NCBI GenBank assembly: GCA_000165425.1
Contig: CT867988.1
Span: 1-64,000 of the forward strand
DNA from: Paramecium tetraurelia
Taxonomy: Eukaryota
Direction: 5' to 3'
DNA: 64,000 nt
Under the pieces are notes generated by a model that saw only the letters and a list, made by a program, of their open reading frames with translations, did not search any database and was not told the origin of the DNA. Made by a program: the position numbers and the translations under genes. Below are positions 10,792-16,808 of the stretch, one piece after another (the first letter of the stretch is position 1; every line of letters begins with the position of its first letter).

Positions 10792-11643
10792 TCAATTTAA
10801 CATAATGGCCAACAAGATTGATCCATAAAGGATGAATTCTGAGCTAGAATCGGGCTCTTGACAAATTTCGCATTTCTTGGTATCTGGATTCCAAGCATAA
10901 GAATAAAGGGTATAAGCTAAACATTAGGTTTACGTTAAAGTTGTGGTATCTAAATCTGAACATTTGGTTCCATCCCATTTACAAAAAGTAACTTATTTTG
11001 CATCAAGTGAGAAAAATAACATACAAGAACTCTCTGGCAAAATAGAACAACTTAATGGTTTGCAAGTGTCACCCCAGTAGCAGGAATTAGTGTTGCAAAC
11101 ATCTATGCTTGTATAATCAGAACATTGAGTTATTGTTTTGGTTTCACAAGTTTAGGCTGAAACATTCTTCACACATTGTTTACCATCGCTAGTTACAAGC
11201 CAGTTACATTCACTATAAGGTATTTTATCGCAACTTCCGATACTTAAAGCGGATTCTTATGTTCTATCCATACATTTCACAGTTCCAGCTGTTAAATCGA
11301 TTGTGTCGGCATCTACTTAACATTTTATCAATTCATAACAATAATCTCCTTCTGTGGTTTTGTATGAATAATCAGAACATGATGTGAAATCCTCACACTT
11401 ACTAGTTTTGTAATTCCAAATACAGTTAAATGGGTCTGGAACTCCTTGGCAATCATTTTTGCTGAATGATGAGCATGCTTTGTTTGAACATGTCGACCCG
11501 TTAGGATCCCAAGTGCAATAATCGCTTAAGCAATCTGCTTGTTGTAACAGATTCTCGCATGAACACTGATACACACTGCCTAGTTATAAAGTGACTGAAT
11601 TTGCTATGAAGAACAAAGTGAATCCAATTAAATATATCTTCAT
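10792..11643 (-). CDS. Cys-rich surface protein (mini-antigen-like, probable GPI anchor)
   Basis: Signal peptide MKIYLIGFTLFFIANS; periodic Cys/CxW repeats (CSCENL..CTWD..CIWN..CNWL..CYWG..CKWD); hydrophobic C-terminus FILYGSILLAIMLN; intronless. Confidence 0.8.
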
Positions 11644-11873
11644 TATGTTTTTTATGATTTAAATTAAGATTTTTTGGTTTTATCAAAATCAGAATTTATA
11701 GGACAATATACATTAGAAAAACGCAAATTCTAAGTATGATTTTAGAAATTCTTAATAAGAAATACTGGTTCAATTATTCTTCAGTTTGTTTCGATGATTG
11801 TCCAAAATATTCTATTGTGGAGCAAACAATTTTGGTAAATTCGTATATAATTTTATTAATAACATAAATAAGA

Positions 11874-13973
11874 ATGGATAGTAGTCCAAGGTGTCCTTTT
11901 GGATTTTAGACAGAACCAAGCAATGATTCACCGGTGAAGAAAGTTAGTTTTAAGGAATTTCTTATTCAGAGATAGAGTGTTCATAAACCCTCATTACCTA
12001 CAGTTGTCTAACAAAAAAATAGGAGATGGGAAAAACAATTAAGTTCTTTATTGACACCTGAGATCCTTTCCTTCAGACAAGTGCAATCAAATCAGCAAAT
12101 ACCTTTAAATGAAATAGTGAAGGTAGCGAGAATCACTAATACAAAAACTAACTATGAGTACAATTTAATATTATTGTAGTAAAGAACAAGAATTTAAGAA
12201 AACGAAATCTGAATCATTATAAATACCAATGCTCAACATTCCTATGATGCCGACAAATGGATTTTTCAAATTTCAACCCCAACATCGTATGAGAAAAACT
12301 GGAATGTATAGTCTTAGAAATTGTAATGAATAACTAGAATAAATCAACAGAAAATAAAAGTCCAATGTTAACAACTTTTCTCTGCCCTAATTAACGCAGG
12401 AAGAGATTATTACCTAATTTTTCCAAACGAAATTTTAAAAGTCAAATGAAAATGATGTAATTCAGCATTTATAGATAATTTAGGAATTACAACATAAACC
12501 AATTGGATCTAGTGCAAGATTAGATTACGAGGCAAACATTCTTTTCACTAAGATCACTTCCGATAGCATCTTATAGTAAAAATACAAAGGAAGACATATC
12601 AAACATTTAAAAGAAGTTTATCGCAGTTTATTAGGTGTTGGGTACGACAAGGAAATAATGATGGACCCTGGAAGACTAAAAAGCATTCATTCCTAATTAA
12701 ATATAAAAAATGATTAGTTTTTAAGATTTAAATACTTATTCATCAATTAGTTTCTCGAAATGGAAACTCCTTTAGATTTATTTTTTAAAGGTTGTCACAA
12801 AATAGAAAGCTTCAAACCTTTAGTTTTAAATAAGGTATGTAATCAAATTTATTTATAGCCTCTAGATTTCGAAATCTATGGTTAGGATGTAGGAATTTAG
12901 AAAATCACATAATCTATGTATGATAAAATATTCAAAGACTACACTCTTTCTCCATATTTCATATTGATAGACAAGGAAACTCAAGCAAAGAAATTCTCTC
13001 GTTTATTTGCACAATTGATTGATCACACTGACTCTCCCAACTATACTCTAGAGATATTAAGAGAAAGACATATTTAATATAATTTAACTTTAGTTCAGTT
13101 TGCAAATTTTAAATTTTATCTTTCTATGACTTTGCAATAGTAATAAATAGGATTCAAGCATATCAGATAATTGTTGAGAAAAATGGACACTTACAAATAT
13201 GCGATTTTGAACAAGGAGAGTTTGTAAGAAACCATAAATGCCTTTGGATATAGAGAATTTATTGATGGATTGGTGAAGTAATGTTAAACTGAACCAATCT
13301 TATACGAATTATTTAATAAGCGTGGTAAGTATAGATTTACGGCTCATTGTGAAAATATGATACATTTTTTTTTTCGCGATAATGTCAAATCTATAACAAT
13401 TTAAGACATTGAATAAGTGCATAAATGCAATGCAATCATTTAAGAGAAGGTTTTTTCAAAAATTAAAGAACACACCTTTTAGGCTCTAATGAAAATTACA
13501 AAGGATTCTCTCATACTCTCTGATTTTGAAGAAGATTGGGAGGAAATCAAACCATTTATAATGAATAAATCAAAAAATCAAATTGTGAAATAATTGGGAG
13601 GATAAACTTTTATCAATAACCTTGCTTCCACTTTGGCATTTGAAATGCAACAAAGACCTCAATTAAACAAAGTCTTTGAGGTAATTCTTGAAGTCAATTA
13701 TTATTTTTTAGGACAATGATACTTGTGTAGCCTAAAATTTGAAATGCAAACTGAATTTAATGCTTTATGGAATTCATTTTTATAAGAAAACAGAGTTGGA
13801 GGTGCTTCACAAAAGATTAAAAATATCAGAATAAGTTTACTTTGAATTTTAATAAGTAAGAGTCCATTAATATATATAAGGCCACAAAACATGTTCTTGA
13901 AAATTTTCCTAAATTGTCATGGTTAAATAAGGTATTGGAAGACTATAAAAAACATATTGTTTCTGATTTTTGA
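11874..13973 (+). CDS. Multi-domain truncated (2/2) haemoglobin-like protein, four tandem globin units; paralogue A
   Basis: Unit 2: FEIYGQDVGIQKITQSMYDKIFKDYTLSPYFILIDKETQAKKFSRLF..YTLEILRERHIQYNLTLVQFANF fits the group-I trHb pattern. Three further similar-length units with His at the F8-equivalent (KSIH, EQVH, EVLH). Confidence 0.72.
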
Positions 13974-14033
13974 TGATAACTTTACAACATATTTGTTATT
14001 TGATTATAATGAATGTTTTTAATAATTATAATA

Positions 14034-16066
14034 ATGTTTTCTGAGTCAGAACACTCAAAGTCAGTTAAAACTTGTTAATTCAAAGAATTTATAGAACTGT
14101 TGTCAACTGATAGAAAGCCAATCCTGCCAATCTTAAATAAAAGAAAATCTCAGTAAACTCTTGGAAGCATTATACACCATAATAACGAAAGTTCACAACT
14201 AAAAGATATCCAATTAGCCTAGAATATACGACATGTATAAAATAATAATATTATTGAATATGCCTCAAGCTTGTCGTAGTTAAGGTTTGATAGCTATTTA
14301 AACTTAACAATATGACTCAGACATCAATAGTGTCAAATTTAAATAATTTGCAGATAGTCCTTCATATAAAACCTCAAATCATATAGTTTCTTACGAAAAA
14401 AGCAGTTTTAGTTAGCATTTTCGAATAACATCTTAAAGATCAAGTCCACAGTAAAAAAAAGTGAACTTAATAAGAAATCATCAGTTGTTTGTTGATTTAG
14501 TTAAGGGGACGGAGAAAATAAAAAATGATGTAATTTGTCCTCATAGTCCTTAACTCTAGAAGTCGCAACAATAGATCATTTCAGGATATCTGAAAGATTT
14601 GGCAAGGTAAATGTACTATGTAAATAAAATAGAAAAAGGAGAGTCGTTCAAAAACCATAAGGGATTGATGCAAGATTGGATTTTGAGACTGAATTAATTT
14701 ATTCAGCATTGACATAAGATTGCGATTTGGCAAAGAAGTTTTAGAATAAAACAGGAAACCATGTCAAACAAATCTTTAGGAACATATTGGCAACTGGATA
14801 TGATCAATAAATCTATTTAGATTTAAATAGGATAAGGAGTATTCATTTGTGTTTGAACTTAAAGAATTTTCATTTCTTTAGATTTAAATATCATTTCATG
14901 AATAGATTTATGTAAATGGGGATACCAGTCGAATAGTTATTCAAATGTTGTGAGAGAATTGAAAATGTTAGGCCTTATATTTTGAATGAGAAAATGGAGT
15001 ATGACGTATATGGTGGTTAAGATGGTATAGAGTTATGCGCAAATTAAATGTATGCTAAAATCTTTGCTGATATAACGTTGGAATATTACTTTGTGGGAAT
15101 AGATCGAGCAACTCAAGCATCAAAATTTGCGAAATTGTTTTTCCAATTGATTTATCATATGGACTCTCCAAATTATACTAATGAAGTTTTAAGAGAGAGA
15201 CATGTCAAATACGAATTAACAAATGTGTAACTTACTAATTTCAAATTTTATCTCTGTTTAACTCTTTAACAATTAAAAGTTCCCTTTAAATATGCCAGTG
15301 CTTTGCTAAGAAGAATGGATATCTACAAATATGCTATCATAAATAAAAATAGTCTCTAGGATTACGTATGCAATTACGGATACAATTAATTCATAGATTA
15401 ATTTGTAAGAAGTTGTTTGGAAGAGCCTGTGTTATTTGATTTAATCTAAAGAAGGGGGAAGGCTAAATTTACATGTCATTGTGAAAACATATTCCATTAC
15501 TTTTTTCGATACAACGTAAAGGCAATTACTTTAGATGATCTCGAGGAAATTCACTATCACAAAACTATAATTACTGAGAAGATCTTTATGAAGTTGAAGG
15601 AAAAGGCCATGGCTGAAGTAGCGAAACTTACTAACGATCGTATAGTTTTGGAAGACTTTGACGAGGATTGGGATGAAATAAAACCTCTGATTTTGAGTGA
15701 TCCTAGGATGTCCTTTCTCAAAACCAAGGATAGAGATCTCTTGATCAATGAATTGGCATATAATTTGGAGAATGAGTTCTACTCGAGATAACTCAATGTG
15801 ATATATGAGGTATTGTTGCATTAATAGTTTAGACAGAGGAGATCAACATGATGAGGAATATCAAGAGTAAGTTGAACCTGTTGGTGTATACTATCAAATT
15901 TTTTAAGAGGACTGACTTGGAAGTAATTCATAGAAGATTCAGGATCAGTGAAAGTTAGTATTTCGATTTTTAATAAAGCTTTAAATCACTTTTAGATAGG
16001 ATTCCAGAACTTCATTATATACATGGATTATTGGAAGAATATAAAAAATATATTGTTTCGGATTGA
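14034..16066 (+). CDS. Multi-domain truncated haemoglobin-like protein, four tandem globin units; paralogue B
   Basis: Colinear with 11874-13973: YDVYGGQDGIELCANQMYAKIFADITLEYYFVGIDRATQASKF..YTNEVLRERHVKYELT; other units RSIH, EEIH, EVIH; same C-terminus (LEEYKKYIVSD). Confidence 0.72.
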
Positions 16067-16143: not shown

Positions 16144-16808
16144 ATGAGTGACTAATTTCATTAACTGAGTGATAAATGGACCATCTCTGAGAAGTATACC
16201 TAAAATAAAGATGACGATTACAAAAAGACAATAGCTGAAATATGCTCGATCAGAAGTGTTGAGGAATTTGCATTTATCATGAAATAAACAATCTATTAGA
16301 GTTTAACAGATTTATTCAGCGAGCCATAATAATAAAAATAGTATCAATTCTTGATTCTATGATAGATTCAAAAATTTTAAGAACAATGCTATAGAGACTC
16401 AAATTGAAGCGATCTAATTTTTCAAAAATGGTATTAGCCCTTTGTGGGAAGATCCTGAAAACGAAAAAGGAGGTGACATACAATTTGAGGTTCCTATTGC
16501 CTTAATTGGCATTTACAATCAACTCTACACTGAAATAATACATGAGATTATAGGGTAACAAAAGGAGGAGCTAAGGCATGTAAGATTTGGAATTAATCAA
16601 GGTTAATGGAGTGAGAGTTCTAGATAAAATAAATGCCCCCAAGGGTAATGGAATCAGAATAGAATTGTGGTTGGATATTGATCCTACGGATAAAAACGAG
16701 GAGGTATAAATCCAGATTAAAAAAATTGATGATTGGATTCTTCAATTAGCAGAATTATTTGATATTAGATAACTTAAATTAAAAACTTAATCACACAAGA
16801 AAAAATGA
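16144..16808 (+). CDS. eIF4E-family protein (divergent)
   Basis: HQLSDKWTI..SVEEF..FFKNGISPLWEDPENEKGG..VNGVRV..GIRIELWL..SH; 2 micro-introns. Confidence 0.85.

What the first reader, a model, noticed from the sequence alone, without database searches (positions are those of the whole stretch)
11874..16066. Two tandem genes each encoding four chained truncated-haemoglobin domains
Seen: in table 6, both paralogues have a ~200-aa low-complexity N-terminus followed by four ~115-aa units (A: ~12500, 12860, 13215, 13580; B: ~14660, 14995, 15350, 15700). Unit 2 fits group-I 2/2 globins: pre-A Y-G(G), B9-B10 MY, CD1 YF, E7 Q (TQ), F8 His (LRERH), G-helix L-T-x-x-Q-F/L. Units 1, 3 and 4 are divergent but all eight units keep an F8-position His (KSIH/RSIH, RERH/RERH, EQVH/EEIH, EVLH/EVIH), conserved across paralogues while distal residues differ between units. 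Known: the characterised Paramecium/Tetrahymena haemoglobins are single-domain ~120-aa trHbs. Inference: a single-chain multi-haem protein with unit-specific distal pockets (O2/NO/redox sensor or electron wire), which I do not know to be described. The standard-code ORF track hides it.
Basis: partly seen in the sequence, partly recalled or inferred. Interest (0 to 1): 0.82.

Follow-up and report, generated by a model that had tools for sequence, protein, structure and literature searches.

The report
Paramecium four-unit truncated haemoglobin gene pair
Two neighbouring Paramecium genes each encode a protein made of a floppy head followed by four chained, strongly diverged truncated-haemoglobin domains; this is a real but already recognised kind of protein (multi-unit truncated haemoglobin) whose function nobody has yet measured.

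Summary
Under the ciliate code the window (Paramecium tetraurelia macronuclear DNA; gene A equals a deposited 656-aa 'unnamed protein product') carries two tandem, spliced and transcribed paralogues (A 11874-13973, B 14034-16066). Each encodes a ~190-aa disordered N-terminus and four ~115-aa units. All four units are homologous to group I 2/2 (truncated) haemoglobins: a profile built from 90 Pfam-validated units scores 34/53/16/21 bits on A's units (best of 96 controls 3.5), profile-profile probabilities are 98.9/99.3/95.6/98.1 %, unit 2 and unit 3 model as 2/2 globins (Z 17.0 and 13.6), and the only four invariant columns among 27 relatives are the four proximal (F8) histidines. Distal pockets differ by unit and are conserved by position (unit 2 Tyr-B10/Gln-E7/Lys-E10; unit 3 His-E10/Cys-E11). 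[quoted passage not shown] It is a divergent new member of a known kind, with an unexplored conserved Cys-Pro-Phe motif in the N-terminus.

The parts
11874..13973 (+). Gene A (656 aa, = P0001). Exons 11874-12157, 12180-12456, 12484-12834, 12859-13680, 13712-13855, 13881-13973; stop TGA
   Evidence: identical to the deposited protein; introns removed in transcript-like contigs
11874..12486 (+). Gene A N-terminal region (aa 1-188), predicted disordered; Arg-Cys-Pro-Phe at aa 6-9 (nt 11889-11900)
   Evidence: AF2 pLDDT <50 for 1-28, 33-48, 55-165, 179-190; Cys-Pro motif
12487..12867 (+). Gene A unit 1 (aa 189-307; contains intron 12835-12858); F8 His256 codon 12688-12690
   Evidence: 34.2 bits to unit profile; hhalign 98.9%; Atlas model TM 0.72-0.80 to Bac_globin clusters
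12868..13218 (+). Gene A unit 2 (aa 308-424), the canonical unit: Tyr-B10, Phe-CD1, Gln-E7, Lys-E10; F8 His375 codon 13069-13071
   Evidence: 53.4 bits; family profile hits 1dlw at E 7.8e-5; VIA Z 17.0, rmsd 1.8 A, 118 of 121 residues vs 1dly
13219..13569 (+). Gene A unit 3 (aa 425-541): invariant His-E10 (H467, 13345-13347) and Cys-E11 (13348-13350); F8 His492 codon 13420-13422
   Evidence: 15.5 bits; hhalign 95.6%; folded alone pLDDT 88, top PDB match THB4 Z 13.6; column counts
13570..13970 (+). Gene A unit 4 (aa 542-656; contains introns 13681-13711 and 13856-13880); Leu-Gly-Gly pre-A motif; F8 His611 codon 13808-13810
   Evidence: 21.2 bits; hhalign 98.1%; Atlas model TM 0.77-0.82
14034..16066 (+). 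Gene B (653 aa). Exons 14034-14234, 14257-14606, 14633-15809, 15833-16066; stop TGA
   Evidence: transcript-like contigs spanning 14036-16038 and 14045-16061 with 22+26+23 nt left out and 0 other letters; intact frame
14655..14993 (+). Gene B unit 1; F8 His255 codon 14844-14846
   Evidence: 33.2 bits
14994..15347 (+). Gene B unit 2; F8 His374 codon 15201-15203
   Evidence: 40.5 bits
15348..15698 (+). Gene B unit 3 (keeps the His-Cys pair at E10-E11); F8 His491 codon 15552-15554
   Evidence: only 6.8 bits directly; aligned column by column with A's unit 3
15699..16063 (+). Gene B unit 4 (pre-A Gly-Gly lost; contains intron 15810-15832); F8 His609 codon 15929-15931
   Evidence: only 4.6 bits directly, close to the control maximum; assigned by resemblance to A's unit 4, compared by eye, not by a formal alignment

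Best explanation
Two expressed tandem paralogues encode multi-unit group I truncated haemoglobins: a disordered ~190-aa N-terminus followed by four 2/2-globin units joined head to tail (the end of each H helix, x-I/L-L/M-N-K, runs straight into the next pre-A segment, as in canonical multi-unit relatives). SHOWN: gene structure, transcription and splicing; homology of all four units to truncated-haemoglobin domains; 2/2 fold models for units 2 and 3, and by an independent model for units 1 and 4; conservation of the proximal His in every unit; position-specific distal pockets that predate the split of the Paramecium subfamilies. INFERRED: each unit binds one haem b through His F8, giving four haems per chain. 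Unit 2 (Tyr-B10, Gln-E7) is the site that binds and stabilises O2/NO, as in the single-domain Paramecium and Tetrahymena haemoglobins. Unit 3, with an invariant His at E10 (the position that supplies the sixth ligand in known hexacoordinate group I globins), is an endogenously six-coordinate haem better suited to electron transfer or redox sensing than to gas storage. Units 1 and 4 have apolar distal sites. The most likely cellular role is O2/NO redox chemistry (NO-dioxygenase-like scavenging or redox sensing), with the N-terminus as a regulatory or docking region.
For: Gene models and expression. Homology: a profile built from 90 Pfam-validated units hits all 4 units in all 16 family proteins tested (64 of 64 units; P0001 34.2, 53.4, 15.5, 21.2 bits), while the best of 96 reversed or shuffled controls scores 3.5 bits. 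hhalign of unit profiles against the canonical unit profile gives 98.9, 99.3, 95.6, 98.1% over 100-109 columns. Distant Paramecium paralogues get Pfam Bac_globin calls on other units (P0013 at its unit 1, E 1.5e-10; P0052 and P0064 at their unit 4). Fold: unit 2 Z 17.0, rmsd 1.8 A. Unit 3 folded alone has pLDDT 88, and in an unbiased search of 48,161 chains the top four are group I truncated haemoglobins (Z 13.6-10.9) and the other listed rows are globins or globin-like folds. The Atlas's own model gives TM 0.72-0.82 to Bac_globin clusters for units 1 and 4 (leads). Haem ligand: the only invariant columns among 27 sequences are H256, H375, H492, H611. F8 is His in 64 of 64 family units and 89 of 90 canonical units. 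Distal pockets by position: unit 3 E10 His 16 of 16, E11 Cys 12 of 16; unit 2 B10 Tyr 14 of 16, E7 Gln 13 of 16, E10 Lys 13 of 16. Units cluster by position across the Paramecium subfamilies (support 96/92, 100/98, 83/99, 99/92). LysE10 is the sixth ligand in Chlamydomonas THB1, 2 and 4 (PMC7082302 passage). His-E10 ligation in Synechocystis GlbN is recalled, not read here.
Against: No haem-binding data exist and none can be computed here. Pfam alone does not reach its cut-off on gene A (unit 2 14.8 bits against 21; P0001 no family at E<=0.01) and gives nothing for gene B's 317-aa ORF. Gene B's units 3 and 4 score only 6.8 and 4.6 bits with my profile, near the control maximum of 3.5, and its unit 4 has lost the pre-A Gly-Gly. 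Foldseek E-values never reached 0.001 (best 0.014 for the full model and 0.088 for unit 3). Z 13.6 for an all-helical domain is in the range the tool warns can arise from common helical arrangements. Units 1, 3 and 4 lack the polar B10/E7/E11 trio typical of ligand-stabilising group I globins. Units 1 and 4 were not folded alone. The residue-level geometry of the His side chains could not be inspected. The assigned function is by analogy only.
Confidence: 0.6

Rival explanations
1. Only unit 2, perhaps with one other unit, still binds haem. The remaining units are degenerate globin folds kept as scaffolding or as protein-interaction modules, so the protein is functionally a single-haem globin with globin-derived spacers.
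For: Unit 2 is the only unit seen by Pfam or by the PDB sequence search. It is the most conserved unit (71% against 51-66% between A and its paralogue P0005). Units 1, 3 and 4 have lost the Tyr-B10/Gln-E7/Gln-E11 pattern, and some have lost the Gly-Gly hinges. Gene B's units 3 and 4 barely score. PMC7082302 (passage) notes that a natural globin, THB3, lacks His F8, so globin domains can drift from haem ligation.
Against: The proximal His is the one residue never lost in any unit of any paralogue: 64 of 64 units, and the four His are the only invariant columns in 27 sequences. The haem-contact positions F4 (Leu/Ile/Met) and CD1 (mostly Phe/Tyr) and the G-helix aromatic are also kept. Unit 3 additionally keeps an invariant E10 His, which is hard to explain without a haem.
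Confidence: 0.25
2. All four units bind haem, but the protein acts as a cytosolic haem store, buffer or chaperone rather than in O2/NO chemistry. The N-terminal Cys-Pro-Phe motif would sense free haem.
For: Four haem sites per chain are inferred. A Cys-Pro-[Phe/Ile] motif is conserved in the N-terminus of 7 of 8 representatives, and in two of them it uses the only Cys of the region. Cys-Pro dipeptides are the core of haem-regulatory motifs (established knowledge, recalled).
Against: There is no direct evidence. The B-type paralogues, gene B included, lack the motif. Position-specific conservation of differentiated distal pockets suggests specific chemistry at each site rather than plain storage.
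Confidence: 0.1
3. The repeats are not globin-derived, and the resemblance is chance among helical, Lys/Ile/Phe-rich ciliate sequence.
For: Weak or absent Pfam hits on the window's own ORFs. Weak unit-against-unit hhalign with the shallow first alignment (probabilities 0-19%).
Against: as above. The controls score at most 3.5 bits.
Confidence: 0.02

Closest known systems
Single-domain group I truncated haemoglobins of ciliates (P. caudatum Hb, PDB 1dlw; Tetrahymena pyriformis trHb, PDB 3aq5)
   Same: Unit 2 aligns over 89 residues of 1dlw with Tyr-B10, Phe-CD1, Gln-E7 and His-F8 in register. It superposes at Z 15.9 to 16.0, rmsd 2.2-2.4 A.
   Different: The known proteins are ~116-121 aa and have one domain. 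Here four units are chained behind a ~190-aa disordered head, sequence identity is only ~18-20%, and three of the four units have non-canonical distal pockets.
Multi-unit truncated haemoglobins (Hade et al. 2017, IUBMB Life 69:479, seen only as a citation and a one-sentence summary in PMC7475203) and Chlamydomonas THB5 with four consecutive 2/2Hb domains (PMC7082302 passage)
   Same: Several group I 2/2 units lie head to tail in one polypeptide. The family profile finds relatives with 2-16 units in Lacrimia, Perkinsus, Astrephomene, Globomyces and unnamed assemblies. The linker pattern is the same (end of H helix directly into pre-A).
   Different: Canonical relatives have near-identical units that each score ~85-140 bits with the unit profile. 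The Paramecium family's units score 10-63 bits, are differentiated by position, and follow a long N-terminal extension carrying a Cys-Pro motif. I could not read Hade et al., so I cannot say whether these Paramecium proteins are in their list.
Endogenously hexacoordinate group I globins (Chlamydomonas THB1/2/4 with Lys-E10, PMC7082302 passage; Synechocystis GlbN with His-E10, recalled)
   Same: Unit 3 has an invariant His and unit 2 a mostly conserved Lys at the E10 column. THB4 is the best structural match of unit 3 (Z 13.6).
   Different: Coordination here is inferred from an alignment column only. Unit 3 also carries a Cys at E11 (12 of 16) that has no counterpart in those proteins as far as I know.
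Multi-domain 3/3 globins of invertebrates (such as Artemia, Daphnia, Ascaris; recalled, not searched)
   Same: Tandem globin domains in one chain, each with its own haem.
   Different: A different globin lineage (3-on-3 fold). Those are extracellular or oxygen-transport proteins with near-equivalent domains.

Membership tests
Group I truncated haemoglobin domain (Pfam PF01152 Bac_globin) | Sequence match to the family model above its curated cut-off | tested here: inconclusive
   Gene A ORF: 14.8 bits against a cut-off of 21, covering profile positions 3-120 of 121. P0001: none at E<=0.01. Gene B ORF: none. Paralogues P0005 (23.2 bits) and P0009 (24.8 bits) pass at unit 2, P0013 at unit 1, P0052 and P0064 at unit 4. 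My own profile and hhalign are positive for all four units of A.
Group I truncated haemoglobin domain (Pfam PF01152 Bac_globin) | 2-on-2 alpha-helical globin fold | tested here: met
   Unit 2: Z 17.0, rmsd 1.8 A, 118 of 121 residues vs 1dly. Unit 3 alone: Z 13.6, rmsd 3.0 A, 118 residues vs THB4, the top four rows being group I truncated haemoglobins. Units 1 and 4 rest only on the Atlas's own model, TM 0.72-0.82, plus the same helix order in the AF2 model. Units 1 and 4 were not folded alone.
Group I truncated haemoglobin domain (Pfam PF01152 Bac_globin) | Proximal His at F8 | tested here: met
   All 8 units of genes A and B. 64 of 64 units in 16 family proteins. The four His are the only invariant columns in 27 sequences.
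Group I truncated haemoglobin domain (Pfam PF01152 Bac_globin) | Polar distal network (Tyr-B10 with Gln at E7 and/or E11) | tested here: inconclusive
   Met in unit 2 (Tyr-B10 14 of 16, Gln-E7 13 of 16). Not met in units 1, 3 and 4 (B10 Phe/Tyr/Leu, Val/Ile, Glu/Ala; E7 apolar). Canonical units also vary here (B10 Tyr 55 of 90), so this is typical rather than strictly defining.
Group I truncated haemoglobin domain (Pfam PF01152 Bac_globin) | Binds haem b | not testable with these tools
Multi-unit truncated haemoglobins (tandem 2/2 units in one chain) | Two or more truncated-haemoglobin domains head to tail in one polypeptide | tested here: met
   Four units in A and in every family member tested. 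Transcript-like contigs show that each gene is one mRNA.
Haem-regulatory motif (Cys-Pro core) | Cys-Pro dipeptide, usually followed by a hydrophobic residue, in an exposed region | tested here: inconclusive
   Arg-Cys-Pro-Phe at aa 6-9 of A lies in a region of pLDDT <50. Cys-Pro-[Phe/Ile] is present in 7 of 8 representatives; shuffles give at least one Cys-Pro in 2.6-25% of trials per sequence. It is absent from gene B and the B-type paralogues. Haem binding was not tested; the motif definition is recalled.

The most novel reading that the evidence does not exclude
The four units are a division of labour within one chain. A six-coordinate His-E10 (possibly His/Cys-switchable) unit 3 relays electrons to the O2/NO-reactive unit 2, with units 1 and 4 as further redox or gas-binding sites. 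The disordered N-terminus would use its conserved Cys-Pro-Phe motif to sense free haem or redox state. This would be a self-contained multi-haem globin 'wire' and sensor with no characterised counterpart among 2/2 globins.
Probability: 0.12. Interest if true: 0.7.

Novelty: new member of a known kind. Interest (0 to 1): 0.35.

Why it matters
As far as my four literature searches show (the key paper by Hade et al. could not be read), multi-unit truncated haemoglobins are known only from sequence surveys, and no passage I read reports a haem stoichiometry, a spectrum or a cellular role for one. The Paramecium family is a useful test case for three reasons. Its four units have diverged into position-specific pocket types that have been kept since before the subfamilies split. 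Paramecium allows RNAi by feeding. The proteins are currently filed as 'uncharacterized', or under automatic names that a Pfam scan does not support. For annotation, the practical gain is that all four units, not just the marginal unit 2, can be labelled as 2/2 globin domains.

Tried and rejected
Pfam on the window's own ORFs gave only a sub-threshold Bac_globin hit for A unit 2 and nothing for B.

Unit-against-unit hhalign with the shallow 9-sequence alignment was weak (probabilities 0-19%), although five of the six pairs aligned roughly in register. With deeper unit alignments only U1-U2 (97.6%) and U1-U4 (74.3%) were convincing; the other four pairs stayed at 1-13%.

The window's whole genome is not held.

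A search for a GT..AG intron that would restore gene B's frame in its 5' part found no typical one. The transcript-like contigs solved this with a 22-nt GT..TG removal.

The look-up of sequencing runs: no RNA holder listed on record. Expression evidence comes from the laid runs instead.

Foldseek found no match at E<=0.001 for either model, although the top rows were truncated haemoglobins.

VIA on the full model reported only unit 2, so it says nothing on the other units.

The tree did not resolve whether the units of the unnamed P0052/P0062/P0064 group are positional orthologues of the Paramecium units; the deep forks are weak.

Hade et al. 2017 is not held. Earlier findings of this scan: none.

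P0067 (Ig-domain protein, E 2.5e-4) is a false hit on the low-complexity N-terminus.

Complex prediction was not used; it does not test haem binding.
Full report
**What is in the sequence**

The region has about 22-39% G+C and is open only if TAA and TAG are read as Gln. The longest frame of gene A holds 33 such codons. Tiny GTA..TAG introns of 22-31 nt interrupt the frames.

Splicing gene A gives a protein that, once a further 27-nt in-frame intron is removed, is identical to P0001, a 656-aa 'unnamed protein product (macronuclear)' of Paramecium tetraurelia. The window is therefore P. tetraurelia macronuclear DNA, and gene A is annotated but uncharacterised.

Transcript-like contigs from two runs of two different studies cover 11873-13988 and 14036-16038 with 0 other letters. 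They leave out 22, 27, 24, 31 and 25 nt in A and 22, 26 and 23 nt in B. Oligo-dT RNA reads from two further runs cover both genes at low depth (about 0.3-13), all with the first mate on the minus strand.

With those introns, gene B reads as an intact 653-aa protein. It is 46% identical to A over 494 aligned residues and 52% identical to the P. tetraurelia paralogue P0073. Both genes are real, spliced and transcribed.

**Are the four units globin domains?**

Direct Pfam scans barely see anything:
- Bac_globin scores 14.8 bits (cut-off 21) on unit 2 of A, although it covers profile positions 3-120 of 121.
- Nothing is found for B.

A profile of nine family members hits P. caudatum haemoglobin 1dlw at E 7.8e-5 on unit 2, with Tyr20(B10), Phe33(CD1), Gln41(E7) and His68(F8) in register.

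An exhaustive profile search found 65 proteins at E<=0.001. I scanned 37 of them with Pfam:
- 31 carry Bac_globin.
- 24 of those carry 2-12 separate stretches.
- The 6 without Bac_globin are P0001, P0010, P0035, P0041, P0071 and the Ig-domain false hit P0067.

From the best-matching stretch in 20 of these I built a unit profile, expanded it to 90 canonical units, and searched 16 members of the Paramecium-type family plus 96 reversed or shuffled controls.
- Every family protein shows four hits in register (64 of 64 units).
- P0001 scores 34.2, 53.4, 15.5 and 21.2 bits.
- The weakest family unit scores 10.2 bits.
- The best control scores 3.5 bits.

Profile-profile comparison of each unit against the canonical units gives 98.9, 99.3, 95.6 and 98.1% probability over 100-109 columns.

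For the window's gene B the direct scores are 33.2, 40.5, 6.8 and 4.6 bits. Its units 3 and 4 are therefore not established on their own. Unit 3 is assigned through its column-by-column alignment with A. Unit 4 is assigned by resemblance to A's unit 4, seen by eye.

**Fold**

AlphaFold2 on a 27-sequence alignment gives a disordered N-terminus (pLDDT below 50 over most of residues 1-190). Residues 200-656 are confidently helical (block means 65-95) and repeat the same A-B-C-E-F-G-H helix order four times. Each conserved His sits at the end of the F helix.

VIA-align places unit 2 (305-424) on C. eugametos, Tetrahymena and P. caudatum truncated haemoglobins at Z 17.0 to 15.9, rmsd 1.8-2.4 A. That list says nothing on the other units.

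Unit 3 has the weakest sequence evidence, so I folded it alone (pLDDT 88, pTM 0.82). Searched without Foldseek against 48,161 chains, its best matches are:
- THB4 (Z 13.6, rmsd 3.0 A, 118 residues)
- 1dly (Z 12.6)
- 3aq5 (Z 11.7)
- THB11 (Z 10.9)

The remaining listed rows are globins or globin-like folds. Foldseek E-values stayed above 0.001 for both models, and the tool warns that Z below about 13 is common for helical proteins.

Units 1 and 4 were not folded alone. The ESM Atlas's own model of P0001 matches Bac_globin clusters at TM 0.72-0.80 (unit 1) and 0.77-0.82 (unit 4). These are leads rather than tests.

**Haem-related residues**

In a 27-sequence alignment that reaches 15-20% identity to A, the only invariant columns are H256, H375, H492 and H611.

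On the unit profile, whose numbering coincides with P. caudatum Hb, F8 is His in 64 of 64 family units and 89 of 90 canonical units. The distal side is unit-specific and conserved by position:

| Unit | B10 | E7 | E10 | E11 |
|---|---|---|---|---|
| 1 | Tyr/Phe | Leu | mostly Ile/Val | Tyr/Phe |
| 2 | Tyr 14/16 | Gln 13/16 | Lys 13/16 | mostly Phe |
| 3 | Val/Ile | Phe | His 16/16 | Cys 12/16 |
| 4 | Glu/Ala | apolar | mostly Asn | Leu |

A third alignment built for the unit 3 fold again shows the E10 His and the F8 His invariant in 21 sequences.

E10 is the position that supplies the sixth haem ligand (Lys) in Chlamydomonas THB1, 2 and 4 (PMC7082302, passage). That Synechocystis GlbN uses His-E10 is my recollection.

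A unit tree groups the units by position across four Paramecium subfamilies with good support. The four-unit protein, with its differentiated pockets, is therefore older than those subfamilies.

The A-type and B-type paralogues of three species report the same longest-contig lengths: 300,637, 397,014 and 357,388. This suggests, but does not prove, that the tandem A-B arrangement is conserved.

**What it most likely does**

Shown: a chain of four 2/2 globin domains, each keeping the haem-ligating His.

Inferred:
- Four haems b per chain.
- Unit 2 is the O2/NO-reactive site.
- Unit 3 is an endogenously six-coordinate redox site.

The role would be O2/NO redox chemistry, by analogy with characterised group I truncated haemoglobins. 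The main rival is that only unit 2 still binds haem. The invariance of all four His argues against this, but only a haem count can settle it.

**Comparison with what is known, and novelty**

- A 2020 review says multi-unit T globins with multiple 2/2 repeats were identified in silico (Hade et al. 2017) and that T1 multi-unit sequences occur in ciliated parasites (PMC7475203, passage). I could not obtain the 2017 paper itself.
- My own searches found relatives with 2-16 units in Lacrimia, Perkinsus, Astrephomene, Globomyces and unnamed assemblies.

What is particular to the Paramecium family:
- The units are so diverged that Pfam sees at most one of them.
- The pockets are differentiated by position.
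- A long disordered N-terminus carries a conserved Cys-Pro-[Phe/Ile] motif in 7 of 8 representatives. The motif is absent from gene B.

None of the passages I read describes biochemical work on a multi-unit truncated haemoglobin. Subscription papers and supplements that I could not see may hold such data or list these proteins.

**Verdict**

The multi-haem inference is plausible but untested. The novelty claim is rejected. This is a new, unusually divergent member of a known kind, of moderate-to-low interest, and its value lies mainly in being an experimentally tractable case.

Noticed in passing
window 14235-14256 (gene B): The 22 nt left out of gene B's transcript-like contigs in two runs from two studies begin GT but end TG, not AG. 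Their removal is needed to keep the frame. This is either a non-canonical 3' splice site or a strain indel that happens to restore the frame.
   Followed up: partly
window 11889-11900 (gene A aa 6-9) and the N-termini of P0005, P0077, P0079, P0052, P0062, P0064: A conserved Cys-Pro-Phe/Ile motif lies in the disordered N-terminus, at varying distances (28-187 aa) upstream of unit 1. In P0077 and P0052 it uses the only Cys of the region. It resembles the Cys-Pro core of haem-regulatory motifs. It is absent from gene B and the B-type paralogues.
   Followed up: partly
window 16144-16359 (+): The gene just downstream starts with a match to the first 44 positions of eukaryotic initiation factor 4E (Pfam IF4E, E 1.8e-5, 25 bits, below the cut-off of 28.7). 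RNA read depth rises sharply there.
   Followed up: partly
window 10792-11643 (-): The upstream divergent gene encodes a 283-aa Cys-rich protein with hydrophobic N- and C-terminal segments, so it looks like a surface or secreted protein. No Pfam family passes its cut-off.
   Followed up: partly
P0005, P0007, P0073 (paralogues): UniRef-derived names 'HECT domain-containing protein' and 'FHA domain-containing protein' are attached to these paralogues. A Pfam scan of P0005 finds only Bac_globin, so the names look spurious. P0007 and P0073 were not scanned.
   Followed up: partly
window 12491-12511 and 12692-12712: A 613-nt contig present in runs X3 and X7 touches the region only through two 21-nt matches, with unrelated sequence around them. 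It probably derives from a paralogue or from chance; it is not a splice form.
   Followed up: no
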